Origin: a virus
Lineage: Duplodnaviria; Heunggongvirae; Uroviricota; Caudoviricetes
IMG/VR virus record: IMGVR_UViG_2734482569_000014
Strand: one strand, 5' to 3'
Length of the DNA: 40,719 bases
The notes below the pieces were generated by a model. That model searched no databases. It was not told the origin of the DNA and saw nothing but the letters and a program-made list of their open reading frames with translations. Shown piece by piece: positions 1,503-40,719 of this stretch (its first letter is position 1; each line of letters starts with the position of its first letter). Position numbers and translations under genes: made by a program.

Positions 1503-1507
1503 GGGAT

Positions 1508-7716: not shown

Positions 7717-7742
7717 AGGAGCCTCCTATGTCATTAATTGCG

Positions 7743-8896: not shown

Positions 8897-9291
8897 TATC
8901 CCCCCCTCACAACCCTGACTTGTGAGCGACTAAGTCCGTACGGTTTCAGCAGTGCTATCGCAAGCTGTAAATCGGGTTCAAGCAATGCAGTGCTGTTTGC
9001 TGGCAACTCAGAAAATGATTTCGATACACTGACCCCGTCAGCCGACACGGCTTTACTGATAACAACGCCAGAATCATTTTTCTGCTGAAACAACTTACCG
9101 AATGAGGCAATTCTGGCTGCATATGCTCCCGCAAGTTTTACCTCTTCCGGAATACGGGATGGGTTAATTTTCAGGTTGAAGCCATTAAGCCAGGCATTAG
9201 CCATTAAAACAGCTTTATTTTTAGCGTTCTCACTCGTCCAGGCGTTCCCAAACGCATTATCAACGTCATCACAGGTCACGTAAGTGATCAT
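8896..9291 (-). CDS. Head-tail connector (gp6-like) protein
   Basis: 131 aa ORF; AGGAG SD overlaps the stop of the upstream small ORF; synteny. Confidence 0.4.
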   Translation of the reverse strand: MITYVTCDDVDNAFGNAWTSENAKNKAVLMANAWLNGFNLKINPSRIPEEVKLAGAYAARIASFGKLFQQKNDSGVVISKAVSADGVSVSKSFSELPANSTALLEPDLQLAIALLKPYGLSRSQVRVVRGG

Positions 9292-9294
9292 GTG

Positions 9295-9471
9295 TTACTC
9301 CTGAGTTTTCCAGCCCATAGCCTTCCAGTTGTCAACTTCATCAGGATGAACATTAGCGATAGTTGGTGCGCCGGGAAACATCTGATAATCGGTCACCATA
9401 ACCACTAACTCAATTTGCGTTTTTTGTGCGGCTTCACGCTGTGCTCTTTGCTCTTTAGTTAATCCGGCCAT
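9295..9471 (-). CDS. Small hypothetical protein (58 aa) between capsid and connector genes
   Basis: Hand-translated: MAGLTKEQRAQREAAQKTQIELVVMVTDYQMFPGAPTIANVHPDEVDNWKAMGWKTQE; below the ORF-track size cutoff; G-rich SD upstream. Confidence 0.3.
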   Translation of the reverse strand: MAGLTKEQRAQREAAQKTQIELVVMVTDYQMFPGAPTIANVHPDEVDNWKAMGWKTQE

Positions 9472-9489
9472 ATGCCCCCCATTAAAAAT

Positions 9490-9503
9490 GGGGCCGAAGC
9501 CCC
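9490..9503 (-). terminator. Intrinsic terminator candidate downstream of major capsid gene
   Basis: Minus-strand RNA GGGGC-UUCG-GCCCC followed by AUUUUUAAU, starting about 10 nt after the capsid stop codon. Confidence 0.5.
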
Positions 9504-9513
9504 GTTTGAATGT

Positions 9514-10653
9514 TTAACCAAGAATCAGACAACCATGTGCCGGCTTCACTGATGAAACACCCCATGCCAGTCCAACTTCATAGCGCACCTGGCGATACTG
9601 ACGATACAGTGCAATCTGGAACGTAATCCCTGAAATCGGGTCCGTAACATTCATTACATCATCAGCATTATCGCCACCTTCCGGCATTGCCGGAGTACGG
9701 GATGCCAGCAGAAACGCGTTGCGATCAAACGCCATATTTGCAGTAAAGGCCCCAACAACTGTGATGGCAGTATCATCGGCCAGATCCTGACGCAGTCCGG
9801 GCGCTGCAAGAGTAATCAGATTGCTGGTCGCTGCTGCCACAACATACTGATTCGGATCACCAGCGAACGTAACAATCTGACCTGCAGAAATACTCCCCGA
9901 ACCAGTATCAATGGAAATAAGAACATCGCCTTCTTTTTTCTCTCCATTCACGAGATAACCAGTTGCAGCAACCTTTGGCGCTCGTTTCACACCTGCCGAA
10001 CTGTGAATATTGAATCCCTCCAGACGCCCCAACACGCCCTCACGCAGTAGCTGTTCAGTGCCGGATTCATTCACTTTAAACAATACAGACTGTTTTCCGC
10101 GCAAATTAGCAATGGCAGTGGAGCCAAGCACCATCTGCAGATCGGTTGTCGGTGCGCCGTTATCCTCCAGAACCTGACGAGCCAGAGCAGCATCAGAAAG
10201 ATCATCTTTAACACCAAACGGCGTTGTCCCTGCGGTTCCCACGGCGCGGGAAGCACCGAAATACAACGCACCAAGATCAGCCTCAACCTCGTTTGCAAGG
10301 GCGCGAAAAGCCTGCTTGAACTGATCAGCCAGAATGGTGTTGTAAGTCCCTGAAGGGCCAAGAGCCAGTTGTTCTTCACCATTCCATTTAACCGGTGCCA
10401 TTTTGGATTTAGTAATTTTTACATCAACAGTGCCAATATTTTGATCACCGGTATTCGGAGCTGACGGCCCCGGTACGATATCTTCGGTTTTCGCCTCAGG
10501 CGCAACTGGCGCGGTTACCGTCTGATCTTTTGCTGCGGCGTCAGCTTTTGCGTTTTTTGCTACCGCAGGGATAAAACCTACCTGCTCACGGGATACAACA
10601 TCCAGGGCGGTATAAATAGTCGGGATCAACCCGGTCAGGGTATTTCCAGCCAT
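9514..10653 (-). CDS. Major capsid protein
   Basis: Large ORF after the scaffold gene; likely true start MAGNTLTGLIP at 10653 preceded by AAGGA SD (track ORF extends to 10746 via an upstream start). Confidence 0.8.
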   Translation of the reverse strand: MAGNTLTGLIPTIYTALDVVSREQVGFIPAVAKNAKADAAAKDQTVTAPVAPEAKTEDIVPGPSAPNTGDQNIGTVDVKITKSKMAPVKWNGEEQLALGPSGTYNTILADQFKQAFRALANEVEADLGALYFGASRAVGTAGTTPFGVKDDLSDAALARQVLEDNGAPTTDLQMVLGSTAIANLRGKQSVLFKVNESGTEQLLREGVLGRLEGFNIHSSAGVKRAPKVAATGYLVNGEKKEGDVLISIDTGSGSISAGQIVTFAGDPNQYVVAAATSNLITLAAPGLRQDLADDTAITVVGAFTANMAFDRNAFLLASRTPAMPEGGDNADDVMNVTDPISGITFQIALYRQYRQVRYEVGLAWGVSSVKPAHGCLILG

Positions 10654-10751
10654 AATTAAATATTCCTTAAAAATTTGCGTAATTGTGAATAGATGGAGTA
10701 ATGAGCTATCCAGCCCTGACACCAGCTCCCATCCGGAAGCTGACAAATGTG

Positions 10752-11516
10752 TTAATCAACGATTGTGATACCGTCTTTCAATGCGTTTTGCTTACCTGCA
10801 ACATCCAGTGCATCAAAAGCAGAGCGTTTCATCGTTTTCTGACCAATATCATGCTGTGTCGGACGGGAGCCGCCGCCATTGTTGCCACTGGCTTTCAGGA
10901 TGTAGTCTTTCTGAGGGTAATTTTCGACAAGGAACTCCAGCGCCTCATCAAACTGCGCCAGTTCGCCAGGCTTCGCGCGGGAATAAATTTTGTTGCCGGA
11001 AGCGTCATAAGCAACGATCCTCCCTTCTTCCACTTTGAATGCCTGCCCGAAGCGGGCTTGTAATAAATCTGCCGGGATCGCAATTTTATCGGCAATATAT
11101 TTTGAACCCGCAAAACTACCGCCAATCATAGAATCGTAAAGCTGCTTCTCCAGCATCTGAGAGCGTTGCTTTTCTTCATCTAATTGCTGCTGAAAATTTT
11201 TCGTAATTTCTGCCTTAACCTGGTCAACCTGTCCCGCATCGAGCAGCTTTTTCTGGTCGATTTTTGACAGCATTTCCAGTGCCTCGATCGCCTTCTTCGG
11301 GTCTTCGATAGCGGCAAACTTAGCCAGTTTTTCCTCTGCAGCTTCTTTAGCCAGGCGATGATTTTTTGCCTCGCCATTAAGCTCTGTAATTTTTTTTGTC
11401 GCCAGCGGTGCATCGAAGCCAATTTCTTTACCATCGTCGTGCACATAAACTGGCAGGCCAGCAGTATCAATTTCTGCGTATTGTTTTCCGTTAATCTCGA
11501 CCGTTTTCAGTTTCAT
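10752..11516 (-). CDS. Capsid scaffolding protein
   Basis: Acidic, alanine/lysine-rich helical protein between MuF-like and capsid genes; likely start MKLKTVEING at 11516 because the track start at 11588 would overlap a terminator hairpin. Confidence 0.6.
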   Translation of the reverse strand: MKLKTVEINGKQYAEIDTAGLPVYVHDDGKEIGFDAPLATKKITELNGEAKNHRLAKEAAEEKLAKFAAIEDPKKAIEALEMLSKIDQKKLLDAGQVDQVKAEITKNFQQQLDEEKQRSQMLEKQLYDSMIGGSFAGSKYIADKIAIPADLLQARFGQAFKVEEGRIVAYDASGNKIYSRAKPGELAQFDEALEFLVENYPQKDYILKASGNNGGGSRPTQHDIGQKTMKRSAFDALDVAGKQNALKDGITIVD

Positions 11517-11576
11517 ATTAGTACCTGGTTTAAGTCTTCCGACAGTTACGCTGCTCACCATCCGGATCGCAGCAAT

Positions 11577-11600
11577 AAAAAAGGCCACCCGAAGGTAGCC
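11577..11600 (-). terminator. Strand-specific intrinsic terminator between head-morphogenesis and scaffold genes
   Basis: Minus-strand RNA GGCUACC-UUCG-GGUGGCC followed by UUUUUU; the plus-strand version has a C-A mismatch and a poor U-tract. Confidence 0.55.
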
Positions 11601-11620
11601 TGTTGTAATAAATGATTTAT

Positions 11621-12736
11621 TTAAATCCCTGCTTTTCTGAATACCTGTGCATCACGCTCACGGAGCTGCTTCAGCGTCAGCCATTCGCCTTTATCGGTGT
11701 AAAATTCATCTGGCGACATACCACCATCCCGAATCAGCTTTGCTCGGCTTTCCCCCACAATCTGTTTTTGTCTGGTGTAAGGCTGACGCAAAAACCATTC
11801 CCTGTAGGTTGTATCTCCGGCCACCACGCCATCCATGCTGGCCCGCTCAGCCGGGGAAATATCGCGAACATCAATACCCAGTTCCTTCGCTGATTTCAGA
11901 ATGAACGTTTCCGTTGAGCGGCAGCAGAAATGAATTTTTCCCGGCCCCTGCAAATAAGGCACGCTGTGACCTACAGGTTTATTATTCAGCGTATATTTGA
12001 GGCGATCCCTGATTCGACATTGTGGCGTAGTACGATTATCAAGCGTTGATAACCATTGCTTACCCTTAATCAAATCATTATTCGCGCTGGCAAAACTCTC
12101 ACGGGCAGTAGCAGCAAGATGTCCAACCGCTGTTTTTGCAATGCTGGCCGCATTAGCCCGGCTCATCTGCAATGCACCATCCTGAAATCCCTTACTGACA
12201 TGTCCCCGAATTTTTCTTGCGATCTGCTCATTGGTATCCCCCAGCAAAAAACCCTGACGCACTGTATTTGTTATGCGTCTGAGCCGATCCGCCTCAAGAT
12301 CTGAGGCCCACTCACTGAGCAGTCGTCCCTGGAATGGTCGCGCCATTGCAGCGGCATAAAGTGCATCAGGAGAGATACCAACCAGAGGGTGAACATCAGC
12401 AACAAAATCAGGTAGCATAGAATCAAACAGACTTAACTGATAACCAGCCTCATAAATTGCCAGCTCGTTCAGCTCTCCGGAGAGACTGGTAAACATGCTG
12501 TTAATAGCAGTGCGGTTAACCTCTCTGACGCTCGCCAGAAGTGACTCCAGGCGCTTAACGGTAAAACTACCTGGATCGAGGCTGTCCAGTGCTATCAGCA
12601 GGCGAGCAGTAAGTTCCGCATCGCTGTCATTCAGTATTTTCACCATTCTGGCAGCCACGCCAGTGCTATAGCGGGATATCCAGACTGCATGAGCAATTGA
12701 TTCATCACGCAGCCGTTCATTCACGGTTTGCATCAT
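11621..12736 (-). CDS. Head morphogenesis protein (Mu F-like / SPP1 gp7 family)
   Basis: 371 aa; position after portal; contains TTPQCR...HFCCR-type motif typical of the family as I recall it. Confidence 0.65.
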   Translation of the reverse strand: MMQTVNERLRDESIAHAVWISRYSTGVAARMVKILNDSDAELTARLLIALDSLDPGSFTVKRLESLLASVREVNRTAINSMFTSLSGELNELAIYEAGYQLSLFDSMLPDFVADVHPLVGISPDALYAAAMARPFQGRLLSEWASDLEADRLRRITNTVRQGFLLGDTNEQIARKIRGHVSKGFQDGALQMSRANAASIAKTAVGHLAATARESFASANNDLIKGKQWLSTLDNRTTPQCRIRDRLKYTLNNKPVGHSVPYLQGPGKIHFCCRSTETFILKSAKELGIDVRDISPAERASMDGVVAGDTTYREWFLRQPYTRQKQIVGESRAKLIRDGGMSPDEFYTDKGEWLTLKQLRERDAQVFRKAGI

Positions 12737-14123
12737 TGATTTCCATCAGCATTACACTCTGATTTTTTAATTCATCGATCACTTCCTCTGGACGGGAATC
12801 CTGATCGATAAATTTCAACGCCTGCAACACCCGAACCGCATCAATCTGACGTATATCACCGCCCTGACGCAATGACTGAACAGCCAGCGCGGAGGATGAG
12901 TCAAACACCTGGGCAGATACATCCAGTTCAGTGCGCACATCCACATTGCCACCGCAACTCTCTCCGATCCATTCCGCCATTATCTGGAGAATATTATCGA
13001 GGGCATCTTCGAGGGAGTTCGCCATTGTATAAAGCGGCGAGTTTTCCTGCATTCGCTCTTCATTAGTCTGATCAACAGATTTGGTGGATGTATTTTCAGC
13101 ACGCAGAAGTTTAGCGCCGGCATGACGCATCTGATTTTCCAGCTTCTCAAGTGATGTTTCGCCAGATTCTATCGCTGCGCCACTATGTTCAACATATTCG
13201 AGGCCATTTTTTGTTCTGTCCTCAAAAATCGTAGCGGTGGATGCACCAACCGTCAGTTCTTCATTCCTGTCCAGCCCGTAGGCCACCAGCAATGGAACGC
13301 GGGCAACATGAAGAATATTGTCCTGCTCGCTCTGGCTTTGCCAGTGCTTGATATTCAGCAAGCCAAGATTAAGCAATGGCGGTGTACCACGCATAAATCC
13401 TGTTTTCTTCGTGTACAGTGTTACCAGAGGAATATCATCACGGCTGGTATTCCATGACTCATGAAGCGTCCAGACAGATTCGCCATTAGTGCCTTCGCTA
13501 CGTCGATAAATTTCAACTCGACGGGGCATAATATGGCGGATCTGCTCCACCTTCTTCTGCCCGAAATCATCACCATCAATAATGATGACCTCTTTTATAC
13601 GCAAATCAGTGAGAACAACTTTCCCTTTTTCAACTTTCGATTTCCATCCAATAACCTGGCGTGGATTCAGCATCGTAACGTACGGACGACCACCGGTCGC
13701 GTTTTCATCGGCTTTTGTCCGAATCTCTTTCATATCCGTTCGTGGATAGTCCACCAGCGCATGTGCCACACCATACTGAAATGCGAGGCTGAAAAATTGC
13801 TGCGCCCACACATCCAGTCGGCTCCCCTCCATGTCGATATTTTCTGCATATTCCCTGATTTTTGCCGGCGTTTCCTCACTCAATACTGTCGGCTCTGCAA
13901 ATATGCGCCCAATATTTTGCTTGATGCTTTCTTCATACACAGGAAGTAGCGTAGCCACAGACAGGCGTTTTTTATAAGCGTCTTCATCTTCGTTAGGCCA
14001 TTTTGGGAGATAATTTTCCCCCTGCCTGCGCATTTCAAGCGTACCGCCCATCAGTGCGTCGTTAATATCCCACGCCTCCAGCATATCGTTATAGTCGAGG
14101 TTGGGTGTTGATATATCAGCCAT
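12717..14123 (-). CDS. Portal protein
   Basis: 468 aa ORF directly downstream of terminase large subunit; size and synteny. Confidence 0.8.
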   Translation of the reverse strand: MADISTPNLDYNDMLEAWDINDALMGGTLEMRRQGENYLPKWPNEDEDAYKKRLSVATLLPVYEESIKQNIGRIFAEPTVLSEETPAKIREYAENIDMEGSRLDVWAQQFFSLAFQYGVAHALVDYPRTDMKEIRTKADENATGGRPYVTMLNPRQVIGWKSKVEKGKVVLTDLRIKEVIIIDGDDFGQKKVEQIRHIMPRRVEIYRRSEGTNGESVWTLHESWNTSRDDIPLVTLYTKKTGFMRGTPPLLNLGLLNIKHWQSQSEQDNILHVARVPLLVAYGLDRNEELTVGASTATIFEDRTKNGLEYVEHSGAAIESGETSLEKLENQMRHAGAKLLRAENTSTKSVDQTNEERMQENSPLYTMANSLEDALDNILQIMAEWIGESCGGNVDVRTELDVSAQVFDSSSALAVQSLRQGGDIRQIDAVRVLQALKFIDQDSRPEEVIDELKNQSVMLMEINDANRE

Positions 14124-14125
14124 AA

Positions 14126-15436
14126 TTAAATCCGAAGTGATGTGACTCTTCCGGTCGGTTTGACAATAGGGAATTGCTTAACGATGAAATAACCTCCGGC
14201 ATCATTCGGGTGATCATTGCCAGATTTTTTATCAGGCTCCCCCTTCTCATCCCAGACCTGTTGCTCCAGAGATTCGGCATATAACGGGCAACGCTTCACA
14301 TTAACTTTATAGCGACGCTCACCATTGGCATTGCAGAACATTGCATTCATTGAGTTAACGCGATCTTTTACTGGCGGGTTCGAGCTGTTCACCACAACGT
14401 TAAAACCAGCCTGCTTAAGCTGGGCTATATCCGTCGTACTTGCGTTACTTGATTTTCTGGAATCCCCGGAAGCATCTGGATAAATATAAATTTCCCTCAC
14501 TTTCCGGTAATCATTCCCATCATACAGCCAGAAGCGTTCTTTAATGATGCGGATCATATCCGGCGTATCGTAGGCATTGATGATTTCAGTTACCGCACAT
14601 GGAAGCCCCAAACGCAGCACATGGACGATTCCCGCCATCTTTCCAACGTTAAAATCCATCCCAATATAAATCGGCTCCCCTGGCTGCTCCACTTCTTCGC
14701 AATTATTCAGTTTCCGGTCAAACTGATGGTAAACAGTACCACTTGTCAGGTTAGTAAACTGTCCTCGAAGATAGGCTTTAATCAGCTCTGGAGGGTATGA
14801 TTCAAGAAGCGAAGGAATGTAATCTGCTGGCAGGTTCTTTTCATTATCGAAAGTAGATGCCTGCACCAGACCATACAGTGAGGCCAGCTCTGTTTTTTCA
14901 CGCACGGCTTTAACAAACTGCTCGTAGACAAATTTGAATCCTTCCGGCGTGGTTGTAACGTCAATACCGTTGCGAAGTCCATCAATCTTATAACGCATAC
15001 GTGCAATTATCTTGCGCCACGCCGTTCTGGCTTTTTCCTTCGGCAAAATGTCCAGTTCATCCACCAACGCATTACCAATTTTGAAACCGACGATCGTTTG
15101 TGGCTTCTCCATCGATCTGCAGATAGTGGTTCCCCGATACTGGCGTCCGTAATAAAAGTGAACCTCTTTATTTCCCTCATTAATTTTTACGTTCAATCCC
15201 CAGTCAGCAGCAACTTCTTCCACTGTAGGGTAAAAAATATCGCGAATTTGGGGATACGTTGGCGCAAAATATCCCTGATTTATACCTGGATGCTCCCAAA
15301 TCCCCTTGCATATGCCGCCACACCCAACCCATGTTTTGCCCGAGCCAAAACCAGCAATATAGGCTTTAAATTTATGGGGCATTGAAAGAAATCGCGCCTG
15401 AGGCACATTAAGCGTCGGAGAGATCATCTTCATCAC
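14126..15436 (-). CDS. Terminase large subunit
   Basis: Walker A-like AGFGSGKT near N-terminus; 436 aa; followed by portal. Confidence 0.9.
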   Translation of the reverse strand: MMKMISPTLNVPQARFLSMPHKFKAYIAGFGSGKTWVGCGGICKGIWEHPGINQGYFAPTYPQIRDIFYPTVEEVAADWGLNVKINEGNKEVHFYYGRQYRGTTICRSMEKPQTIVGFKIGNALVDELDILPKEKARTAWRKIIARMRYKIDGLRNGIDVTTTPEGFKFVYEQFVKAVREKTELASLYGLVQASTFDNEKNLPADYIPSLLESYPPELIKAYLRGQFTNLTSGTVYHQFDRKLNNCEEVEQPGEPIYIGMDFNVGKMAGIVHVLRLGLPCAVTEIINAYDTPDMIRIIKERFWLYDGNDYRKVREIYIYPDASGDSRKSSNASTTDIAQLKQAGFNVVVNSSNPPVKDRVNSMNAMFCNANGERRYKVNVKRCPLYAESLEQQVWDEKGEPDKKSGNDHPNDAGGYFIVKQFPIVKPTGRVTSLRI

Positions 15437-16502
15437 TCCTTACTCTGGCATCAACCACATTAATATTGATCGCCACAGGCTGGGGATGTTCATTATCTTC
15501 CACCGTTTCGATCTCTTTGCGCAGCTTCTGGTTTTCCATTCTGCGCCGTTCAATTTCCAGTTCCCGTAGCCGCTTATCTGCACATAAAGCCCCGCCAGCA
15601 GAAAACAAACGCAACAATTCACGCCGGGCGGCAGCCTTATCCTCCAGCAGGATCTCAACGCCGAATTTTCCGAATTTTGCCCCTGCATATAATTGCCGCG
15701 CATCCCCATCAAGCAGAGTGGTATCAGCCATATAAAGCTGTCCCGTTCCCTCACCGCAGCACTTCGGGCAGTCCGGATTGGGTATGGCGTTATCAACAAA
15801 GCCGAGGCCTCCATATTCCGGTTCGGGTTTGCCATCTCTGGAAGCCTGCGCCGCTGCCTTGTCGAATTCTGCTATATCGCGCCACTGGTAGAGATGATTC
15901 TCGCCCCAGCAATAACGGCAGTTAACACGGCGAAATTGTGCAAGCTGATTGGGGTCGGCCAGGACAATAGCCATCAACTGACTCACTAGTAAATCCAGGT
16001 CTGCGGTATAGCGTTTCTGGTACTGATTGCGGAAGTAGCTGATAGCGCGAAAAACCCTGGCATTTCTAAGCATACGACTGGCGTTGCTGTTAGCTGTCGC
16101 ACCTTGCCCCTCATAACCGGCTAGTCGGTACGCCTCTGTCGGCTTTTTACCCTGAGCAACAAGCATCGCAAACTTAGCCTGCTGGTCAGAAATGCCGAAT
16201 TCATCGGGACAGAACGAAAATTCCTCCGCGTCGCCCTCATTCAGGCCCGCATCGAATACTGGCTTTTTTTCCTGAGATTTTTCGTTCCGCTTTTGTGCAG
16301 TCTGCGCAGATTTTTTCTGCGCACTTTTTTGCGCAGTTTTGCACATTTCTGTCTGCGCATTTTTCGGAGTTTTTTTGATGTAACGACGGGCTGTTGCGTA
16401 ATTCAGTCCCCTTGCTTCACACCATGCCACCGGAGATATACCGGAGCGGGTGTATTCAGCAATATACTCCTGCTGCAACGCCCCCCAGTCCGGTCTGCTC
16501 AT
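15408..16502 (-). CDS. Terminase small subunit (Terminase_2-like core with N-terminal HTH and Cys-rich C-terminal region)
   Basis: Segment QQAKFAMLVAQGKKPTEAYRLAGY...ASRMLRNARV resembles the TerS family motif; lysine-rich AQK repeats; overlaps TerL start. Confidence 0.7.
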   Translation of the reverse strand: MSRPDWGALQQEYIAEYTRSGISPVAWCEARGLNYATARRYIKKTPKNAQTEMCKTAQKSAQKKSAQTAQKRNEKSQEKKPVFDAGLNEGDAEEFSFCPDEFGISDQQAKFAMLVAQGKKPTEAYRLAGYEGQGATANSNASRMLRNARVFRAISYFRNQYQKRYTADLDLLVSQLMAIVLADPNQLAQFRRVNCRYCWGENHLYQWRDIAEFDKAAAQASRDGKPEPEYGGLGFVDNAIPNPDCPKCCGEGTGQLYMADTTLLDGDARQLYAGAKFGKFGVEILLEDKAAARRELLRLFSAGGALCADKRLRELEIERRRMENQKLRKEIETVEDNEHPQPVAININVVDARVRSDEDDLSDA

Positions 16503-16505
16503 CAG

Positions 16506-16757
16506 TTAGTCCTGATTTTTATCCACCCTGAGTAGTTCGCGCAGAGCAAAGGCATCCCCTTTTCTGGCAAGCTTAAACAATGCCGCTCGTAACTCGGCTT
16601 CACCTTTCGCTCTGCCCTTACGGATGGCCGCATAAAAATCTGTCATTGCTTCCCGATTTTCTTTCAGTCGGTTCAGATCAACATCCAGAACGTCAGCGAT
16701 TTGTTGTGCAGTCATCCGGCACGCTGCCAGAGACTCGACTTTCGAATACGGAATCAT
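16506..16757 (-). CDS. Small HTH-type DNA-binding protein, function unknown
   Basis: 83 aa; segment MTAQQIADVLDVDLNRLKENR looks like a helix-turn-helix; immediately upstream of TerS. Confidence 0.35.
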   Translation of the reverse strand: MIPYSKVESLAACRMTAQQIADVLDVDLNRLKENREAMTDFYAAIRKGRAKGEAELRAALFKLARKGDAFALRELLRVDKNQD

Positions 16758-17643
16758 TTGTCACCCCCATTGATATGCAGGGTGTCTTCTTCCTGTATTT
16801 TTCGTGAAGGATTTTTACTGCAGCGTTGTTCCAGGTGACCTGATGGTGAATGCGTTTATGACTGGCACCCATAAGTGAGATTTTTACGCACGACGGCGCA
16901 TACATGACGGAGTAAAAACTTTTAACGTAGGTTCCGGAATCCAGATACAGCTCGGTCATTCCGCCGCTGTTTTTCTGCGTCTGTTTCTGCCCTAACTGGA
17001 CAGCACCGATCGTCATAAACAATTCACCACAGCGACCGAGATTCGTGTACGTATTCACATCCTCGTTAATGCGCCCCATGAATGAGAACGGTCGATCAAC
17101 CGAACAGATAAAGCTGTTCATTGCCTTGCGTTTCACCCACGAAGCATGGCCGCCATTGTCACCAAGAAAATCCCCGCCCTGCGACATAGCGATGGAAAGA
17201 GCAGGTATTGATTCGTAGTACGCAAGCATTTCAGAAAGGATCTCATCCAGTTTCCTTATCGGGAAATAGGCCTGGTCATAGTTGCGATCCACCCGAAACT
17301 GGAACTCGTGATAATCATCATCGAGCTGAATGAAGTATTTACACCCGACCAGTTTTGCCTGGTCGAAACAGGCATTACGGGCGTAAAAAATTGAGCGGCG
17401 GTCACTAAAATTATCGGCTTCGTCAAAACGACTAGCAATATCGGCTTTGGAAAATACCAGCACCTGTTCACCAAATTCAGCCATGTACTGATGCCGTGTC
17501 TTATCTTCATCATCAACAACGATAAAAATTTTCCCGGTATAGCCAGCACGACGCAACGTCCGGTAAGTCAGAACTTTGTCCGGTCGCCCGTGAGTCAGAA
17601 TAAAGGCGCAAAAATCATCACGCATATTCCTCCTCCCCGCCAT
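16693..17643 (-). CDS. YdaY-like protein; putative GT-A-fold (DxD-motif) transferase
   Basis: 316 aa; motifs KIFIVVDDEDK and ARNACFDQAKLVGCKYFIQLDDD resemble family-2 glycosyltransferase signatures by eye; no TM segment; corresponds by position to the Rac ydaY locus. Confidence 0.35.
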   Translation of the reverse strand: MAGRRNMRDDFCAFILTHGRPDKVLTYRTLRRAGYTGKIFIVVDDEDKTRHQYMAEFGEQVLVFSKADIASRFDEADNFSDRRSIFYARNACFDQAKLVGCKYFIQLDDDYHEFQFRVDRNYDQAYFPIRKLDEILSEMLAYYESIPALSIAMSQGGDFLGDNGGHASWVKRKAMNSFICSVDRPFSFMGRINEDVNTYTNLGRCGELFMTIGAVQLGQKQTQKNSGGMTELYLDSGTYVKSFYSVMYAPSCVKISLMGASHKRIHHQVTWNNAAVKILHEKYRKKTPCISMGVTNDSVFESRVSGSVPDDCTTNR

Positions 17644-18406
17644 GCATGATCTCCACCATGCGCTGCGTCATTCGGACAAATCCATTTTCAATAGCCTGCT
17701 GATAATCAATGATCACCAGCGCCGACTCCTCGAAAAGGCACTGAATTTCAGCGGGGGCATGAGCGTAATAGTCCGCAATTCTGCTGAAATTAAACACCGT
17801 GTGACGTTCTGCTGCACACAGGAGGAATTTCTCAATATCAGGATCAAGGGACGCCGAACGTATCCGGCTGATCAGCTCCTGAGTTTTCGTATCGTCGTAC
17901 AGTTCACTGATATCCGGTTTACCGCCTGACGGCTCATAAACAGGCGTATCAATTTTCGTCGTATACGGCTCCTCCTCATTTCCTGTACCGGGCAAAACAT
18001 CCGTCAACAGTTCATCAATTTCTGCCGGGATGAAGCCTGTCAGGGAGACATCAAAATCAGCATTGATTAGGTCCGACAGCTCCATCCGCAACAGATCTTC
18101 ATCCCAGCCAGCATTCATCGGCAGGCGATTATCTGCCAGGCGGTACGCCTTTTTCTGCTCATCCGTCAGGCCAGACAGAACAATGACCGGAACAGAATCC
18201 ATTTTGAGCATTTCAGCCGCCATAACACGACCGTGACCCGCAATAATTTCGCCCTTTTCGTCAATCAGCACCGGATTAGTCCAGCCGAATTGCTTAATAC
18301 TTTCTACCAGTTGTGCCACCTGCTCAGTACTGTGCGTCCTGGCGTTGTGCGCATACGGTGACAATTCTTGTAATGGGCGATAGACTATCTTTAATTTCTC
18401 GCTCAT
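17618..18406 (-). CDS. ParB-like nuclease-domain protein (YnaK-like)
   Basis: N-terminus VYRPLQELSPYAHNARTHS...NPVLIDEKGEIIAGHGRVMAA resembles the ParB/Srx N-terminal domain; sits between trkG and terminase genes as ynaK does in Rac. Confidence 0.65.
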   Translation of the reverse strand: MSEKLKIVYRPLQELSPYAHNARTHSTEQVAQLVESIKQFGWTNPVLIDEKGEIIAGHGRVMAAEMLKMDSVPVIVLSGLTDEQKKAYRLADNRLPMNAGWDEDLLRMELSDLINADFDVSLTGFIPAEIDELLTDVLPGTGNEEEPYTTKIDTPVYEPSGGKPDISELYDDTKTQELISRIRSASLDPDIEKFLLCAAERHTVFNFSRIADYYAHAPAEIQCLFEESALVIIDYQQAIENGFVRMTQRMVEIMHGGEEEYA

Positions 18407-18543
18407 ACAGCCTTGCTTTATGAATAAAACGCACCCCAGCAGCCAGTGCTACTGGGGGCGGAGGTGTTGCTGGTAAAGTTAGGTATTGGATCAATGAGTG
18501 AGTCAACATAATATTAAACTCACAATTATAAATCAGCCATATA

Positions 18544-20019
18544 TTAGGAGCGCCAAAAAAAACCTGAAAACAATATAATAACAGGATAAATTTCAAGGCG
18601 ACCAAGAATCATAGCTATGCACATTAAATATTTTGCAATGTCATTAAGCACTCCGAATGACGATGCAGTAGCCCCAAAACCTAATCCCATATTATTAATA
18701 CATGCAGCCACTGTTGCAAATGATGTAAGAAAATCATATCCCATACCATTTAACACCAGTATAAAAAACACCGTGAAGAGAGTATAAAGAAAAAAGAAAC
18801 TCCATACAGACCTCATTACACGATCTGTAACTATCTTCCCTCCTACATTTACACTCAACAACGCTCTGGGATGAGAAAGCTGATTTATCTCGTGTTTGCT
18901 TTGTTTGAAAAGTATAAGAAATCGAAGTGACTTAATTCCACCACAGGTTGAACCTATACATCCCCCAAAGAAACTTGACAACAGCAAAAACACTATCGTG
19001 TGCGTGGGCCAGTTTGCATAATCCTGCGTAGCTAAACCATTATCAGTGAGCATGGAGCTGGCAAGAAAAAACGAATGAATAAAACTTCCATGCAAGTCAT
19101 ACATACCTATATGCCAGACCTGGAAAGAGGTAACAATGATCACCCCTAAGGCTATTAACAGAAAGAAACGAAGTTCAATATCTCTGATTAAAGGTTTTAT
19201 CGTTTTTCTGCTAATAACAATATACCAAAGAGTGAAGTTGAAAGCCGATAGCAGGGAAAAAGAACCAGCCACCAGCTCAACCAAATAGTTATTAAAATAT
19301 CCGATACTCTCGCTATGAGTTGAGAAACCACCAAGCGAAACTGTGGAAATCCCGTGACAAATAGCATCAAACAAAGGCATTCCTGCAAGTCTATAACAGA
19401 CAATACAAGCAATACCTAATAAAGAATAAGTTATCCACAGTGTCCGTGACGTATCGGCCAGGCGGGGAGTGAGTTTGTCATCCTTAAATGGCCCCGGCAT
19501 TTCTGACTGATAAAGCTTTGCACCACCAATACCCAATAATGGCAATACTGCAACCGCCAGAACAATAACTCCTAAACCACCTATAAAATTTAACTGTGAC
19601 CGATAGTACAAATATGCCCGAGGTAATGAACTAACATCATCAATTACAGTTGCTCCTGTTGTTGTTATTCCAGAAACCCCTTCAAACAGAGCATCAATGA
19701 ACGTTAAATTAAGTTCTGAGTCAATCCATAAAGGGAATGCACTAATAACAGAAAACAAAATCCAAAACATTACAATTATAATAAACCCATCACGGGTACG
19801 TAATTGAATGCCAGATTTCTTAGTTGTATACCACGCTCCGCCACCAATGCAAAAAAATATAACGAAAGTTATAAAGAAAACGAACAGGCTTTTTTCTTTA
19901 TAAAACAATGCTACAACCATTGGTGGCAACATTGAAAGACTATAGAGCCAAACCAGGAACCCACACATATGAGTAACAACTCTTACATGAGATGTATTCA
20001 TATCTAAATATTCTTTCAA
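18544..20019 (-). CDS. trkG: TrkG/TrkH-family potassium uptake membrane protein
   Basis: 491 aa polytopic membrane protein directly after Rz/Rz1, the position trkG occupies in Rac; AT-rich upstream region. Confidence 0.8.
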   Translation of the reverse strand: MKEYLDMNTSHVRVVTHMCGFLVWLYSLSMLPPMVVALFYKEKSLFVFFITFVIFFCIGGGAWYTTKKSGIQLRTRDGFIIIVMFWILFSVISAFPLWIDSELNLTFIDALFEGVSGITTTGATVIDDVSSLPRAYLYYRSQLNFIGGLGVIVLAVAVLPLLGIGGAKLYQSEMPGPFKDDKLTPRLADTSRTLWITYSLLGIACIVCYRLAGMPLFDAICHGISTVSLGGFSTHSESIGYFNNYLVELVAGSFSLLSAFNFTLWYIVISRKTIKPLIRDIELRFFLLIALGVIIVTSFQVWHIGMYDLHGSFIHSFFLASSMLTDNGLATQDYANWPTHTIVFLLLSSFFGGCIGSTCGGIKSLRFLILFKQSKHEINQLSHPRALLSVNVGGKIVTDRVMRSVWSFFFLYTLFTVFFILVLNGMGYDFLTSFATVAACINNMGLGFGATASSFGVLNDIAKYLMCIAMILGRLEIYPVIILFSGFFWRS

Positions 20020-35333: not shown

Positions 35334-37934
35334 ATGAGCACAAAACCACTCTTCCTGTTACGGAAAGCGAAAAAATCATCCGGTGAACCTGACGTCGTCC
35401 TGTGGGCAAGCAACGATTTTGAATCGACCTGTGCCACTCTGGACTACCTGATCGTTAAGTCAGGTAAAAAACTGAGCAGCTATTTTAAAGCTGTTGCCAC
35501 GAATTTTCCTGTCGTTAATGACCTGCCCGCTGAAGGTGAGATCGATTTTACCTGGAGTGAACGCTATCAACTCAGCAAAGACTCCATGACATGGGAACTA
35601 AAACCGGGAGCAGCACCAGACAACGCTCACTATCAAGGCAATACCAACGTCAACGGCGAAGACATGACTGAGATTGAGGAGAATATGCTACTCCCAATTT
35701 CTGGCCAGGAACTGCCCATTCGTTGGCTTGCTCAACACGGCAGCGAAAAACCGGTAACGCACGTTTCACGCGACGGACTCCAGGCATTACACATTGCTCG
35801 GGCTGAAGAACTACCGGCTGTTACTGCCCTGGCTGTTTCCCACAAAACCAGCCTGCTCGACCCGCTGGAAATTCGCGAACTCCACAAACTGGTTCGTGAC
35901 ACTGACAAAGTTTTCCCTAATCCTGGTAATTCAAACCTGGGACTGATAACTGCTTTTTTCGAAGCATACCTGAACGCTGACTACACCGATCGAGGACTGC
36001 TGACAAAAGAGTGGATGAAGGGTAATCGTGTTTCACACATCACTCGCACGGCTTCCGGTGCTAATGCTGGCGGCGGAAACCTCACCGATCGCGGCGAAGG
36101 TTTCGTACACGATCTGACGTCACTGGCGCGGGACGTAGCCACTGGCGTACTGGCCCGTTCAATGGATCTGGACATCTATAACCTTCATCCGGCACACGCT
36201 AAACGCATTGAGGAAATTATCGCTGAAAATAAACCGCCCTTTTCTGTTTTCCGCGACAAATTCATCACCATGCCTGGCGGGCTGGATTATTCCCGCGCCA
36301 TCGTGGTTGCGTCCGTAAAAGAAGCACCAATTGGGATCGAGGTCATCCCCGCGCACGTCACTGAATATCTGAACAAAGTACTGACTGAAACCGATCATGC
36401 CAACCCTGATCCGGAAATCGTGGATATTGCCTGCGGTCGCTCCTCTGCCCCGATGCCGCAGCGAGTAACAGAAGAAGGAAAACAGGATGATGAAGAAAAA
36501 CCGCAACCATCTGGAACAACGGCAGTTGAACAGGGAGAGGCTGAAACAATGGAACCGGACGCAACTGAACATCATCAGGACACGCAGCCGCTGGATGCTC
36601 AGTCACAGGTAAATTCTGTTGATGCGAAATATCAGGAACTGCGGGCAGAACTCCATGAAGCCCGGAAAAACATTCCATCAAAAAATCCTGTCGATGCCGA
36701 TAAATTGCTTGCTGCATCACGTGGTGAATTTGTTGACGGAATTAGCGACCCGAACGATCCGAAATGGGTAAAGGGGATCCAGACTCGCGATTGTGTGTAC
36801 CAGAACCAGCCAGAAACGGAAAAAACCAGCCCGGATATGAATCAACCTGAGCCAGTAGTGCAACAGGAACCGGAAATAGCCTGCAATGCCTGCGGCCAGA
36901 CTGGCGGGGATAACTGCCCTGACTGTGGTGCGGTGATGGGCGACGCAACATACCAGGAAACATTCGATGAAGAGAGTCAGGTTGAAGCTAAGGAAAATGA
37001 TCCGGAGGAAATGGAAGGCGCTGAACATCCGCACAATGAGAATGCTGGCAGCGATCCGCATCGCGATTGCAGTGATGAAACTGGCGAAGTCGCAGATCCC
37101 GTAATCGTAGAAGACATAGAGCCAGGTATTTATTACGGAATTTCGAATGAGAATTACCACGCGGGTCCCGGTGTCAGTAAGTCTCAGCTCGATGACATTG
37201 CTGATACTCCGGCACTGTATTTGTGGCGTAAAAATGCCCCCGTGGACACCACAAAGACAAAAACGCTCGATTTAGGAACCGCTTTCCACTGCCGGGTACT
37301 TGAGCCGGAAGAATTCAGTAACCGCTTTATCGTAGCACCTGAATTTAACCGCCGGACAAACTCCGGAAAAGAAGAAGAGAAAGCGTTTCTGAGGGAATGC
37401 GCAAGCACAGGAAAAACGGTTATCACTGCCGAAGAAGGCCGGAAAATTGAACTCATGTATCAGAGCGTTATGGCTTTGCCGCTGGGGCAATGGCTTGTTG
37501 AAAGCGCCGGACACGCTGAATCATCAATTTACTGGGAAGATCCTGAAACAGCAATTTTGTGTCGGTGCCGTCCGGACAAAATTATCCCTGAATTTCACTG
37601 GATCATGGACGTGAAAACTACGGCGGATATTCAACGATTCAAAACCGCTTATTACGACTACCGCTATCACGTTCAGGATGCATTCTACAGTGACGGTTAT
37701 GAAGCACAGTTTGGAGTGCAGCCAACTTTCGTTTTTCTGGTTGCCAGCACAACTATTGAATGCGGACGTTATCCGGTTGAAATTTTCATGATGGGCGAAG
37801 AAGCAAAACTGGCAGGTCAGCTGGAATATCACCGCAATCTGCGAACCCTGGCTGACTGCCTCAATACCGATGAATGGCCAGCTATTAAGACGTTATCACT
37901 GCCCCGCTGGGCTAAGGAATATGCAAATGACTAA
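35334..37934 (+). CDS. recE: Exodeoxyribonuclease VIII (RecE)
   Basis: 866 aa, same length as K-12 RecE; followed by overlapping recT. Confidence 0.9.
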
Positions 37935-38736
37935 GCAACCACCAATCGCAAAAGCCGATCTGCAAAAAACTCAGGGAAACCGTGCACCAGCAGCAATTAA
38001 AAATAACGACGTGATTAGTTTTATTAACCAGCCATCAATGAAAGAGCAACTGGCAGCAGCTCTTCCACGCCATATGACGGCTGAACGTATGATCCGTATC
38101 GCCACCACAGAAATTCGTAAAGTTCCGGCGTTAGGAAACTGTGACACTATGAGTTTTGTCAGTGCAATCGTACAGTGTTCACAGCTCGGACTTGAGCCCG
38201 GTAGCGCCCTCGGTCATGCATATTTACTGCCTTTTGGTAATAAAAACGAAAAGAGCGGTAAAAAAAACGTTCAGCTAATCATTGGCTATCGCGGCATGAT
38301 TGATCTGGCTCGCCGTTCAGGTCAAATCGCCAGCCTGTCAGCCCGTGTTGTCCGTGAAGGTGACGAGTTTAATTTCGAATTTGGCCTTGATGAAAAGTTA
38401 ATACACCGCCCAGGAGAAAACGAAGATGCCCCTGTTACCCACGTCTATGCTGTCGCAAGACTGAAAGACGGAGGTACTCAGTTTGAAGTTATGACGCGCA
38501 AACAGATTGAGCTGGTGCGCAGCCAGAGTAAAGCTGGTAATAACGGGCCGTGGGTAACTCACTGGGAAGAAATGGCAAAGAAAACGGCTATTCGTCGCCT
38601 GTTCAAATATCTGCCCGTATCAATTGAGATCCAGCGTGCAGTATCAATGGATGAAAAGGAACCACTGACAATCGATCCTGCAGATTCCTCTGTATTAACC
38701 GGGGAATACAGTGTAATCGATAATTCAGAGGAATAA
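37927..38736 (+). CDS. recT: Single-strand annealing protein RecT
   Basis: Start [12 protein letters not shown] overlapping recE stop; 269 aa. Confidence 0.9.
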
Positions 38737-38791
38737 TTCAGCCTGGCGGTGTAATGCACCGCCAACTTGAAATATTTTTATGAGAAAAATT

Positions 38792-38941
38792 ATGAGATAT
38801 GACAATGTTAAACCATGTCCATTTTGTGGTTGTCCATCAGTAACGGTGAAAGCCATTTCAGGATATTACCGAGCGAAGTGTAACGGATGCGAATCCCGAA
38901 CCGGTTATGGTGGAAGTGAAAAAGAAGCACTCGAACGATGA
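38792..38941 (+). pseudogene. ralR: ralR (restriction alleviation / type I toxin) with apparent premature TGA at codon 50
   Basis: Reads MRYDNVKPCPFCGCPSVTVKAISGYYRAKCNGCESRTGYGGSEKEALER then TGA, after which NKRTTGNNNGGVHV continues in frame; a 64-aa ORF is absent from the track. Confidence 0.5.
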
Positions 38942-38966
38942 AATAAACGAACCACTGGAAATAATA

Positions 38967-39167
38967 ATGGAGGTGTTCATGTATAAAATTACCGCCACTA
39001 TTGAAAAGGAAGGTGGCACTCCTACTAACTGGACAAGATATTCAAAATCTAAACTAACGAAATCAGAATGCGAAAAAATGCTCTCAGGTAAAAAAGAAGC
39101 AGGCGTTTCCAGAGAGCAGAAAGTAAAACTGATAAATTTTAATTGCGAGAAACTTCAGTCCTCGTGA
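38967..39167 (+). CDS. ydaC: YdaC-like small protein
   Basis: MEVFMYKITATIEKEGGTPTNW...; track ORF extends upstream to 38907 inside ralR in another frame. Confidence 0.5.
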   Translation: MEVFMYKITATIEKEGGTPTNWTRYSKSKLTKSECEKMLSGKKEAGVSREQKVKLINFNCEKLQSS

Positions 39168-39266
39168 ATTGCATTGTATTCAAATTAAAACTTCATAGCT
39201 GATTATTAATAATCAACATCGGGCGTCAATTTAAGTCTAACATTGGCGCCTGCCAGAGGTGATGCG

Positions 39267-39482
39267 ATGGCACAAGTAATCTTTAATGAAGAGTGGATGG
39301 TTGAATACGGCCTGATGCTTCGCACTGGTCTGGGGGCCAGACAAATTGAAGCATACCGCCAGAACTGTTGGGTGGAAGGCTTCCACTTCAAACGAGTATC
39401 TCCTTTAGGGAAGCCAGACAGTAAGCGAGGGATTATCTGGTATAACTATCCAAAGATAAATCAGTTTATCAAAGACTCATGA
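39267..39482 (+). CDS. xis: Excisionase (YdaQ/Xis-like)
   Basis: [28 protein letters not shown]..., 71 aa, immediately upstream of integrase. Confidence 0.7.
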
Positions 39483-39483
39483 T

Positions 39484-40719
39484 ATGTCTAAATTACCAAC
39501 AGGTGTCGAGATTCGAGGTAAATACATTCGCATCTGGTTCATGTTTCGAGGAAAACGATGTCGGGAAACATTGAAAGGCTGGGAGGTTACTAACAGTAAC
39601 ATTAAAAAAGCCGGGAATTTAAGAGCGTTGATAGTTCATGAAATCAATTCCGGTGAGTTTGAGTATTTAAGACGTTTTCCCCAGTCCAGCACTGGGGCAA
39701 AAATGGTGACAACGAGGGTCATAAAAACGTTCGGGGAGCTTTGTGATATCTGGACAAAAATTAAAGAAACAGAGTTAACAACAAACACAATGAAGAAAAC
39801 GAAATCACAATTAAAAACACTCAGGATAATAATTTGTGAGAGTACTCCGATATCGCATATTCGTTATAGCGATATCTTAAACTACCGGAATGAACTGCTG
39901 CATGGAGAAACGCTTTACCTGGATAATCCAAGATCCAACAAAAAAGGAAGAACCGTGCGCACAGTTGATAACTATATCGCCCTGCTCTGTTCGTTGTTAC
40001 GTTTTGCGTATCAGTCGGGATTTATATCAACCAAACCATTTGAAGGAGTAAAGAAATTACAGAGAAACAGAATAAAGCCTGACCCGTTATCTAAAACAGA
40101 ATTCAATGCATTAATGGAAAGTGAAAAAGGACAGAGCCAGAACTTGTGGAAATTTGCCGTATACTCCGGGCTTCGTCACGGGGAACTGGCTGCTCTGGCG
40201 TGGGAGGATGTGGATTTCGAGAAGGGAGTTGTGAATGTCAGAAGAAACCTGACGATACTGGATATGTTCGGTCCCCCAAAAACAAATGCGGGGATCCGGA
40301 CGGTAACACTACTGCAGCCTGCTCTTGAAGCACTGAAGGAGCAATACAAACTGACCGGGCATCATCGCAAAAGCGAAATCACTTTTTATCATCGGGAGTA
40401 CGGCAGAACCGAAAAGCAAAAACTGCATTTTGTTTTCATGCCCAGAGTGTGTAACGGAAAACAGAAACCTTATTACTCGGTAAGCAGTTTGGGTGCGAGA
40501 TGGAATGCAGCAGTAAAACGTGCTGGTATTCGCCGCCGTAATCCGTACCATACGCGGCATACTTTTGCCTGCTGGCTGTTGACGGCAGGAGCGAACCCGG
40601 CGTTTATAGCCAGCCAGATGGGGCATGAAACTGCGCAGATGGTGTATGAAATTTACGGTATGTGGATTGATGACATGAACGACGAACAGGTAGCCATGTT
40701 GAATGCGCGGTTATCGTAG
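39484..40719 (+). CDS. intR: Tyrosine recombinase / prophage integrase
   Basis: 411 aa; C-terminal catalytic region with HTRHTFACWLL...Y motif; stop codon is the last three bases of the window. Confidence 0.9.
   Translation: MSKLPTGVEIRGKYIRIWFMFRGKRCRETLKGWEVTNSNIKKAGNLRALIVHEINSGEFEYLRRFPQSSTGAKMVTTRVIKTFGELCDIWTKIKETELTTNTMKKTKSQLKTLRIIICESTPISHIRYSDILNYRNELLHGETLYLDNPRSNKKGRTVRTVDNYIALLCSLLRFAYQSGFISTKPFEGVKKLQRNRIKPDPLSKTEFNALMESEKGQSQNLWKFAVYSGLRHGELAALAWEDVDFEKGVVNVRRNLTILDMFGPPKTNAGIRTVTLLQPALEALKEQYKLTGHHRKSEITFYHREYGRTEKQKLHFVFMPRVCNGKQKPYYSVSSLGARWNAAVKRAGIRRRNPYHTRHTFACWLLTAGANPAFIASQMGHETAQMVYEIYGMWIDDMNDEQVAMLNARLS

What the first reader, a model, noticed from the sequence alone, without database searches (positions are those of the whole stretch)
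38792..38986. ralR appears interrupted by an in-frame TGA at codon 50
The reading frame starting MRYDNVKPCPFCGCP runs 49 codons, hits TGA, then continues in the same frame with NKRTTGNNNGGVHV before TAA. That C-terminal tail is what I recall for intact 64-aa RalR, so this looks like a TGG-to-TGA change at Trp50. The ORF track lists no 64-aa ORF here. RalR is the DNase toxin of the RalR/RalA type I toxin-antitoxin pair; truncation could inactivate it, or this is a natural variant.
Basis: partly seen in the sequence, partly recalled or inferred. Interest (0 to 1): 0.45.

Follow-up and report, generated by a model that had tools for sequence, protein, structure and literature searches.

The report
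Common truncated ralR toxin allele (W50stop)
The ralR toxin gene in this Rac-type prophage carries a real, widespread stop-codon mutation that removes the most conserved end of the small protein, so it is probably a dead or weakened toxin beside an intact antitoxin RNA; this is an ordinary, already catalogued natural variant.

Summary
Window 38792-38986 (+) reads 49 codons, TGA (38939-38941), 14 more in-frame codons, then TAA. Against K-12 ralR there are two differences: codon 49 CGA vs AGA (synonymous) and codon 50 TGA vs TGG (Trp50 to stop).

It is neither an error nor a private mutation. The exact haplotype occurs in at least 308 of 5,426 complete E. coli genomes (about 16% of ralR carriers), including O157:H7 EDL933 and Sakai, O55:H7 and O111. 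The exact 49-aa protein is on at least 1,000 contigs, and RefSeq names it an intact RalR (WP_001443846.1).

Outgroups (E. ruysiae, Shigella, Salmonella, Citrobacter) all keep Trp, so TGA is derived.

The stop removes the W-N-x-R motif, which is conserved as strongly as the four zinc-binding cysteines (W50 and N51 100%, R53 98% of 63 diverse relatives). It also cuts the single predicted helix in half. The RalA antitoxin sRNA (38985-39163, minus strand) and its 16-nt target in ralR are intact.

Most likely this is a loss-of-function or strongly weakened toxin allele of a decaying type I toxin-antitoxin pair. Low-level UGA read-through inserting Trp could restore some wild-type protein; this is untested.

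Interest is low.

The parts
38792..38941 (+). Truncated ralR (lar) coding sequence: 49 codons plus a TGA stop. The product keeps the CPFC...CxxC zinc ribbon (C9, C12, C30, C33).
   Evidence: Translation. RefSeq annotates the identical sequence as a 150-nt ralR CDS, WP_001443846.1. Pfam PF14354 scores 39 bits over profile positions 2-52 of 58. NCBIfam NF007260 scores 126.9 bits over profile positions 1-49 of 64.
38939..38941 (+). Derived nonsense codon TGA (Trp50 to stop). The G-to-A transition is at 38941.
   Evidence: K-12 has TGG here. E. ruysiae, Shigella flexneri, Citrobacter braakii and a soil MAG have TGG, and Salmonella has Trp.
38936..38938 (+). Codon 49 is CGA (Arg). It is synonymous with K-12 AGA and fully linked to the TGA on this backbone.
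   Evidence: Alignment to K-12. Among complete genomes there are 0 exact CGA-TGG and 0 exact AGA-TGA 99-mers on the K-12-like backbone. CGA-TGG does exist on divergent backbones.
38942..38986 (+). Untranslated remnant of the ralR 3' end: 14 codons (NKRTTGNNNGGVHV) plus TAA, identical to K-12. [quoted passage not shown]
38914..38929 (+). The 16-nt RalA-pairing site in ralR mRNA (Gly-Ser-Glu-Lys-Glu-Ala codons). It is intact and ends 9 nt upstream of the TGA.
   Evidence: Direct repeat 38916-38929 / 39088-39101. Description of the 16-nt repeats in Guo et al. 2014, PMC4041452.
38985..39163 (-). ralA antitoxin sRNA, full length.
   Evidence: Rfam RF02694 scores 225.1 bits against a gathering score of 170, E 3.4e-55, model positions 1-179 of 179. 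No difference from K-12 in this interval.
39086..39101 (-). Second copy of the 16-nt repeat. Its complement is the RalA segment that pairs with ralR mRNA.
   Evidence: PMC4041452.
38980..39167 (+). ydaC (DUF1187, homologue of K-12 rcbA), 62 aa. In K-12 its ATG overlaps the ralR stop codon; here ralR translation ends 38 nt upstream of it.
   Evidence: Pfam PF06688 scores 132 bits over profile positions 1-61 of 61. RefSeq annotation. K-12 coordinates.
35334..38736 (+). [quoted passage not shown]
   Evidence: ORFs. Annotation of identical DNA. Operon name from PMC3141248.
39267..40719 (+). xisR (39267-39482) and intR (39484-40719), the end of the Rac-type prophage. In identical loci the next gene is ttcA.

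Best explanation
This is a naturally occurring nonsense allele of ralR (also called lar), the small zinc-ribbon toxin of the Rac-prophage RalR/RalA type I toxin-antitoxin pair. A single G-to-A transition changed the ancestral Trp50 codon TGG to TGA. Translation therefore ends after Arg49 and yields a 49-aa protein. That protein keeps the four-cysteine zinc ribbon but lacks the family-invariant W-N-x-R motif and the second half of its only helix. The most likely consequence, which is inferred and not shown, is loss or strong reduction of RalR activity. These strains would then carry a toxin-defective module beside an intact RalA sRNA and an intact pairing site. The allele arose once on a K-12-like Rac backbone, is linked to a synonymous AGA-to-CGA change in codon 49, and has spread to many E. 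coli lineages, including O157:H7.
For: Shown: the sequence and frame and the two differences from K-12. Shown: TGG or Trp in all outgroups. Shown: the exact haplotype occurs in 308 complete genomes, against 1,107 with the K-12 haplotype and 121 with the C114/CGA-TGG haplotype. All 14 TGA contigs in the viral collection are identical to the window over 460 nt, and the exact 49-aa protein is on at least 1,000 contigs. Shown: W50 and N51 are 100% and R53 98% conserved in 63 relatives from 50%-identity clusters, as strongly as C9, C12, C30 and C33, while residues 54-64 are variable and gappy. Shown: the AlphaFold model of a full-length homologue has one helix at 43-57, which the stop would cut. 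Shown: RalA and the 16-nt site are intact. The prophage arm of two carriers (EDL933 and NCTC10444) differs by 0.24%, while the adjacent host flank differs by 1.47%. This is consistent with spread of the element or allele between chromosomal backgrounds.
Against: No experiment addresses the activity of the 49-aa form. Guo et al. 2014 made no truncations, and I found no paper that mentions the allele. The zinc ribbon is retained, and the product still passes the Pfam, TIGRFAM and NCBIfam cutoffs. No secondary decay is seen in the gene, although the allele may simply be young. The conservation estimate comes from hits found with a query that contained the motif, so there is some ascertainment bias. 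The census counts only exact 99-mers and the best copy per genome. About 250-350 ralR-positive genomes were not typed.
Confidence: 0.75

Rival explanations
1. The 49-aa protein is a functional short form. The zinc ribbon alone would carry the toxin or restriction-alleviation activity, so the allele would be neutral or adaptive and not a knockout.
For: The zinc-ribbon cysteines and residues 1-49 are identical to K-12. The product passes the family cutoffs. The allele is common and shows no further decay. RefSeq treats it as an intact gene.
Against: It lacks W50, N51 and R53, which are invariant or nearly so across the family. None of the single-domain relatives examined ends before this motif. 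The predicted helix is halved.
Confidence: 0.15
2. The stop is leaky. UGA is read by Trp-tRNA-Trp at a low rate, and because the ancestral residue was Trp, read-through yields exactly wild-type 64-aa RalR. The allele would then be an attenuated toxin with cell-to-cell variation, not a null.
For: The stop is UGA followed by A, at a former Trp codon. The 14 downstream codons and the TAA are intact and in frame. A K-12 reporter gave about 2% UGA read-through at 37 C and about 4% at 25 C, set by competition between Trp-tRNA-Trp and RF2 and heterogeneous among cells (PMC10570021).
Against: No stimulatory RNA structure follows the stop: MFE -6.2 kcal/mol, z +0.73, and the 38 nt after the UGA are unpaired. 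The read-through level in this context, and in non-K-12 strains, is unknown. From my own knowledge, K-12 carries an unusually weak RF2 variant, so the level elsewhere is likely lower. The intact tail is explained equally well by a young allele and by overlap with the ydaC ribosome-binding site and start codon and the last two bases of ralA. A few percent of a poorly expressed, RalA-repressed toxin may have no effect.
Confidence: 0.08
3. The change was selected for its effect on the downstream gene ydaC (rcbA homologue) and not on RalR. It would act by uncoupling ydaC translation from ralR, or by improving a promoter-like -35 hexamer (ATGGAA to ATGAAA) 16 nt upstream of AATAAT.
For: In K-12 the ydaC/rcbA ATG overlaps the ralR stop (PMC4041452), whereas here ralR ends 38 nt upstream. 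The promoter scan lists ATGAAA-16-AATAAT at 38938-38965.
Against: The scan found 4 sites against 1.9 +/- 1.4 expected by chance, and this one matches only 9 of 12 positions. A transcript starting just after 38965 would begin about 8 nt before the ydaC ATG, inside the GGAGG, and so would lack a complete Shine-Dalgarno sequence. ydaC has its own strong GGAGG, so it probably does not depend on coupling.
Confidence: 0.04
4. It is a sequencing or assembly error, or a programmed recoding site (selenocysteine).
For: None beyond the in-frame UGA itself.
Against: The identical sequence occurs in 308 complete genomes from many laboratories and in 14 viral-collection contigs. No SECIS-like hairpin follows the UGA. 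Rfam finds no recoding element in 38000-40000.
Confidence: 0.01

Closest known systems
RalR/RalA type I toxin-antitoxin system of E. coli K-12 Rac prophage (Guo et al. 2014, PMC4041452); ralR was earlier named lar (restriction alleviation; King & Murray 1995, cited from memory, paper not held)
   Same: Same locus and synteny (recE-recT-ralR-ydaC-xisR-intR). ralR codons 1-48 are identical and codon 49 is synonymous. RalA sRNA is identical and full length, as are both copies of the 16-nt pairing repeat.
   Different: The toxin ORF stops at codon 50 (49 aa against 64 aa). The ralR stop no longer overlaps the ydaC start. ydaC is 62 aa here against 69 aa in K-12.
RefSeq protein WP_001443846.1 (49-aa 'type I toxin-antitoxin system endodeoxyribonuclease toxin RalR') in CP-933R/Sp10 of O157:H7 and in many other strains
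   Same: Identical sequence. The window's recE-intR arm is 100% identical to NCTC10444 and 99.76% to EDL933.
   Different: Nothing differs. The only issue is that the database name implies an intact toxin. The record passes NCBI's equivalog cutoff (126.9 against 113 bits) while covering only 49 of 64 profile positions.
Lar family zinc-ribbon proteins (Pfam PF14354, TIGR03655)
   Same: The CPFCG...CxxC zinc ribbon is present, and the scores are above the cutoffs.
   Different: The product lacks the invariant C-terminal W-N-x-R motif present in all 63 single-domain relatives examined.
Decayed chromosomal type I toxin genes, such as the inactive hok homologues of K-12 mentioned in PMC4041452
   Same: A chromosomal or prophage-borne toxin gene disabled by mutation while its antisense or regulatory RNA partner remains.
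   Different: Here there is a single nonsense codon with no further decay. Inactivity is inferred, not demonstrated.

Membership tests
RalR (NCBIfam NF007260 equivalog) | Whole-protein score above the curated cutoff (113 bits) | tested here: met
   The 49-aa product scores 126.9 bits.
RalR (NCBIfam NF007260 equivalog) | Full-length match to the 64-position profile | tested here: not met
   The match covers profile positions 1-49 of 64, whereas the 64-aa form covers 1-64 at 166 bits.
Lar family (Pfam PF14354 / TIGR03655) | Four-cysteine zinc ribbon (C-P-F-C ... C-x-x-C) | tested here: met
   C9, P10, F11, C12, C30 and C33 are present in the window product and invariant in the family.
Lar family (Pfam PF14354 / TIGR03655) | C-terminal W-N-x-R motif at the end of the helix | tested here: not met
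   The motif is 100%/100%/98% conserved in relatives. In the window it lies after the TGA and is not translated.
RalR/RalA type I toxin-antitoxin system | RalA antitoxin sRNA gene present on the opposite strand | tested here: met
   Rfam RF02694 scores 225.1 bits against a gathering score of 170, full length, at 38985-39163 (-).
RalR/RalA type I toxin-antitoxin system | 16-nt complementarity between RalA and the ralR coding region | tested here: met
   Repeat copies at 38916-38929 and 39088-39101, with the same sequences as K-12 (PMC4041452).
RalR/RalA type I toxin-antitoxin system | Intact toxin ORF encoding a toxic DNase | tested here: not met
   The ORF is interrupted at codon 50. The activity of the 49-aa product cannot be tested with these tools.
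RalR/RalA type I toxin-antitoxin system | Toxicity on induction, neutralised by RalA in an Hfq-dependent way | not testable with these tools
   This needs expression experiments. It has been shown only for the K-12 64-aa form (PMC4041452).
Rac-type prophage at ttcA | recE-recT-ralR-ydaC-xisR-intR synteny next to ttcA | tested here: met
   The gene order is seen in the window. DNA 100% identical to it in NCTC10444 is followed by ttcA-dbpA. The window itself ends at the intR stop codon.
Selenoprotein gene / programmed UGA recoding | Stable hairpin (SECIS) immediately 3' of the UGA | tested here: not met
   The 38 nt after the UGA are unpaired in the minimum-free-energy structure, and z = +0.73 against shuffles.

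The most novel reading that the evidence does not exclude
The W50 TGA is a 'self-correcting' leaky stop. Near-cognate Trp-tRNA-Trp read-through would regenerate exactly wild-type RalR at a few percent, varying from cell to cell. The toxin-antitoxin pair would become a low-dose, stochastic DNA-damage switch that selection has retained in O157:H7 and other lineages, instead of a dead gene.
Probability: 0.06. Interest if true: 0.5.

Novelty: already known. Interest (0 to 1): 0.15.

Why it matters
The significance is modest. About one in six ralR-carrying complete E. coli genomes, including the O157:H7 reference strains, encode a RalR that lacks the family's most conserved motif, yet databases label it an intact endodeoxyribonuclease toxin. 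Surveys of toxin-antitoxin repertoires, and phenotypes attributed to RalR/RalA (fosfomycin tolerance, cell death in biofilms), should not be carried over from K-12 to these strains without testing. The natural allele also offers a ready structure-function probe for the W-N-x-R motif of the Lar family, whose biochemical activity (restriction alleviation or DNase) is still poorly understood. No solved structure of the family could be found.

Tried and rejected
- **Sequencing error:** rejected on population counts.
- **Selenocysteine or structured recoding:** rejected. There is no hairpin after the UGA and no Rfam element other than RalA.
- **Do the two substitutions affect RalA pairing?** No. 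The 16-nt site ends at 38929, 6 nt before the first change. Reading the flanking bases by eye shows no extended complementarity.
- **Intermediate haplotypes:** exact 99-mer probes for CGA-TGG and AGA-TGA on the K-12-like backbone found none in 5,426 genomes. CGA-TGG exists only with other linked changes such as T114C. The order and mechanism of the two changes therefore remain unresolved.
- **Solved structures:** phmmer gave only spurious CbpD hits.
- **Fold comparison:** Foldseek against the PDB gave only generic zinc ribbons at E >= 0.35. The fold comparison says nothing about a nuclease mechanism.
- **Literature:** no paper mentions the 49-aa allele, and King & Murray 1995 is not held.
- **Internal promoter for ydaC:** the match created by the G-to-A change is consensus-only and poorly placed, so I did not pursue it.

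Full report
**Observation.** Window 38792-38986 on the + strand translates as MRYDNVKPCPFCGCPSVTVKAISGYYRAKCNGCESRTGYGGSEKEALER*NKRTTGNNNGGVHV*. The TGA is at 38939-38941 and the final TAA at 38984-38986. The mechanical ORF list has only a 53-aa ORF ending at 38941, and no 64-aa ORF.

**Context.** The neighbours are recE (35334-37934), recT (37927-38736), a DUF1187 gene (ydaC, 38980-39167), xisR (39267-39482) and intR (39484-40719). This is the integrase-proximal arm of a Rac-type prophage.
- The arm is 100% identical to E. coli NCTC10444, 99.76% to O157:H7 EDL933 (prophage CP-933R) and 98.4% to K-12 Rac.
- In the identical loci the next genes are ttcA and dbpA. This is the known Rac attachment site (PMC4632033).
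- lar (ralR) is described as part of a recET-lar-ydaCQ operon (PMC3141248).

**Comparison with the reference.** K-12 ralR (b1348) is 195 nt, or 64 aa. The alignment shows two differences inside the gene. Nt 145 is C here and A in K-12, making codon 49 CGA instead of AGA, both Arg. Nt 150 is A here and G in K-12, making codon 50 TGA instead of TGG. The 14 codons after the stop are identical to K-12.

**Direction of change.** Trp is ancestral and the TGA is derived.
- Escherichia ruysiae and Shigella flexneri have AGA-TGG.
- Citrobacter braakii and a soil MAG have CGC-TGG.
- The Salmonella homologue reads ..VRWNKR...

**Frequency.** I used 99-nt probes centred on codon 50, for which only exact matches fall in the >=99% identity band. 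Counts are among 5,426 complete E. coli genomes.

| Haplotype | Exact matches |
|---|---|
| CGA-TGA (window) | 308 |
| AGA-TGG (K-12) | 1,107 |
| C114/CGA-TGG (divergent backbone) | 121 |
| CGA-TGG on K-12-like backbone | 0 |
| AGA-TGA on K-12-like backbone | 0 |

- A 551-nt query found the locus in 1,923 genomes. The TGA allele is thus in about 16% of carriers and about 6% of all genomes.
- This is a lower bound, because only exact 99-mers are counted and about 250-350 carriers were not typed.
- Carriers include O157:H7 EDL933 and Sakai (Sp10), O55:H7, O111:H- and many human and animal isolates.
- In 120 Rac-like contigs from the viral collection the split was 75 AGA-TGG, 31 CGA-TGG, 14 CGA-TGA and 0 AGA-TGA. 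All 14 TGA contigs were identical to the window from -60 to +400 relative to the ATG.
- The exact 49-aa protein is recorded on at least 1,000 contigs, which is the counter's cap.
- This rules out a sequencing error and points to a single origin.
- Between two carriers, EDL933 and NCTC10444, the prophage arm differs by 0.24% and the adjoining host flank by 1.47%. This suggests the element or allele has moved between chromosomal backgrounds. It rests on one pair and a 1.5-kb flank.

**What is lost.** An exhaustive phmmer search with a full-length homologue found 1,690 clusters at 50% identity, nearly all matching through query residue 52-60.
- In alignments of about 60 single-domain members, the invariant columns are C9, P10, F11, C12, C30, C33, W50 and N51. 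G13 and R53 are at 98% and A46 at 92%. Residues 54-64 are variable and often absent.
- The stop therefore removes a W-N-x-R motif conserved as strictly as the zinc ligands.
- An AlphaFold model of a 64-aa homologue (mean pLDDT 78) shows a beta-hairpin at 17-22/25-30 and one helix at 43-57. Residues 59-64 are disordered. The truncation halves that helix.
- No solved structure of the family exists, and Foldseek returned only generic zinc ribbons with non-significant scores.

**What is kept.**
- Rfam detects a complete RalA antitoxin sRNA at 38985-39163 on the minus strand (225 bits against a gathering score of 170). It is identical to K-12.
- The two copies of the pairing repeat are at 38916-38929 and 39088-39101. 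This matches Guo et al. 2014, who showed that RalA represses ralR through this 16-nt complementarity (PMC4041452).
- Neither substitution touches the pairing site.

**Why databases call it intact.** The 49-aa product scores 126.9 bits on NCBI's RalR equivalog model, whose cutoff is 113, although it covers only positions 1-49 of 64. It also just passes TIGR03655 and Pfam PF14354. RefSeq consequently annotates a 150-nt ralR CDS (WP_001443846.1) and not a pseudogene.

**Mechanism, most likely.** This step is inferred. The allele makes a truncated zinc-ribbon peptide that has lost the conserved C-terminal element, so RalR activity is abolished or much reduced. RalA remains as an orphan antitoxin, possibly preserved because it is antisense to ydaC or because the allele is young. 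A side effect concerns ydaC. In K-12 the ydaC/rcbA start overlaps the ralR stop. Here ralR translation ends 38 nt upstream, so any translational coupling is lost, although ydaC has its own GGAGG.

**Alternatives.**
- A functional short form cannot be excluded without experiments.
- UGA is the leakiest E. coli stop and is read by Trp-tRNA-Trp, at about 2-4% in a K-12 reporter (PMC10570021). Because the ancestral residue is Trp, read-through would regenerate wild-type RalR. There is no stimulatory structure, and the level in this context is unknown.
- Selenocysteine recoding and sequencing error are rejected.
- A promoter-like hexamer improved by the G-to-A change is only a weak consensus match.

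**Verdict.** This is a real, derived and common nonsense allele that is already catalogued in RefSeq. It is of low novelty. Its main practical value is as a warning about annotation and about extrapolating from K-12, and as a natural probe of the Lar-family W-N-x-R motif.

Noticed in passing
window 39165-39167 (ydaC stop codon): The window's ydaC ends at TGA (62 aa, the full length of the DUF1187 Pfam profile). K-12 has AGA there, and rcbA reads on to 69 aa. Most other haplotypes in the viral-collection contigs keep the T, so the K-12 reference form looks like the derived stop-loss variant. The SNP lies 2 nt upstream of the mapped RalA 5' end.
   Followed up: partly
proteins P0012 (67 aa) and P0015 (96 aa), E. 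coli; corresponds to window ~38929-39101: These are RalR-YdaC fusion proteins. In P0012, RalR residues 1-46 (..GSEKEA) are joined directly to YdaC ..GVSREQKVK... This looks like a deletion between the two 16-nt direct repeats that serve as the RalA pairing site. Such a deletion would remove the RalR C-terminus, most of ydaC and much of ralA.
   Followed up: no
window 38936 and 38941: The synonymous A-to-C change and the nonsense G-to-A change lie 5 nt apart and are completely linked on the K-12-like backbone. No intermediate was found in 5,426 complete genomes. It is unresolved whether this reflects a multi-nucleotide mutation, a short conversion tract from a CGA-bearing Rac lineage, or a lost intermediate.
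   Followed up: partly
protein P0002 (77 aa, cluster of 26 member sequences): Another ralR variant changes the same residue, with Ser at position 50 (..LERSNKRT..). This is a second, independent hit on the invariant Trp.
   Followed up: no
L001 (EDL933) against L132 (NCTC10444): Between these two carriers of the TGA allele, the prophage arm is about six times less diverged (0.24%) than the adjacent ttcA-dbpA host flank (1.47%). This suggests recent movement or recombination of the Rac arm between backgrounds.
   Followed up: partly
family hits P0022-P0128: Many Lar-family proteins carry 2-5 tandem copies of the roughly 55-aa zinc-ribbon/W-N-x-R unit, for example P0022 (322 aa, 4 matched stretches) and P0027 (295 aa, 5). 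This repeat architecture is not seen in RalR itself.
   Followed up: no
window 38745-38763, between recT and ralR: There is a perfect 7-bp G+C-rich hairpin (GGCGGTG-TAATG-CACCGCC). A T-run follows about 11 nt downstream (38775-38779) and carries a 1-nt length difference from K-12. The terminator scan did not call it. It could modulate read-through from recET into ralR.
   Followed up: no
window 1-20000, minus strand: The window contains a long run of large minus-strand ORFs, including one of 1,077 aa at 2537-5770. Lysis genes and trkG lie nearby in the matching NCTC10444 record. This Rac-type element is therefore much more complete than the 23-kb K-12 Rac remnant. I did not annotate it further.
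   Followed up: no
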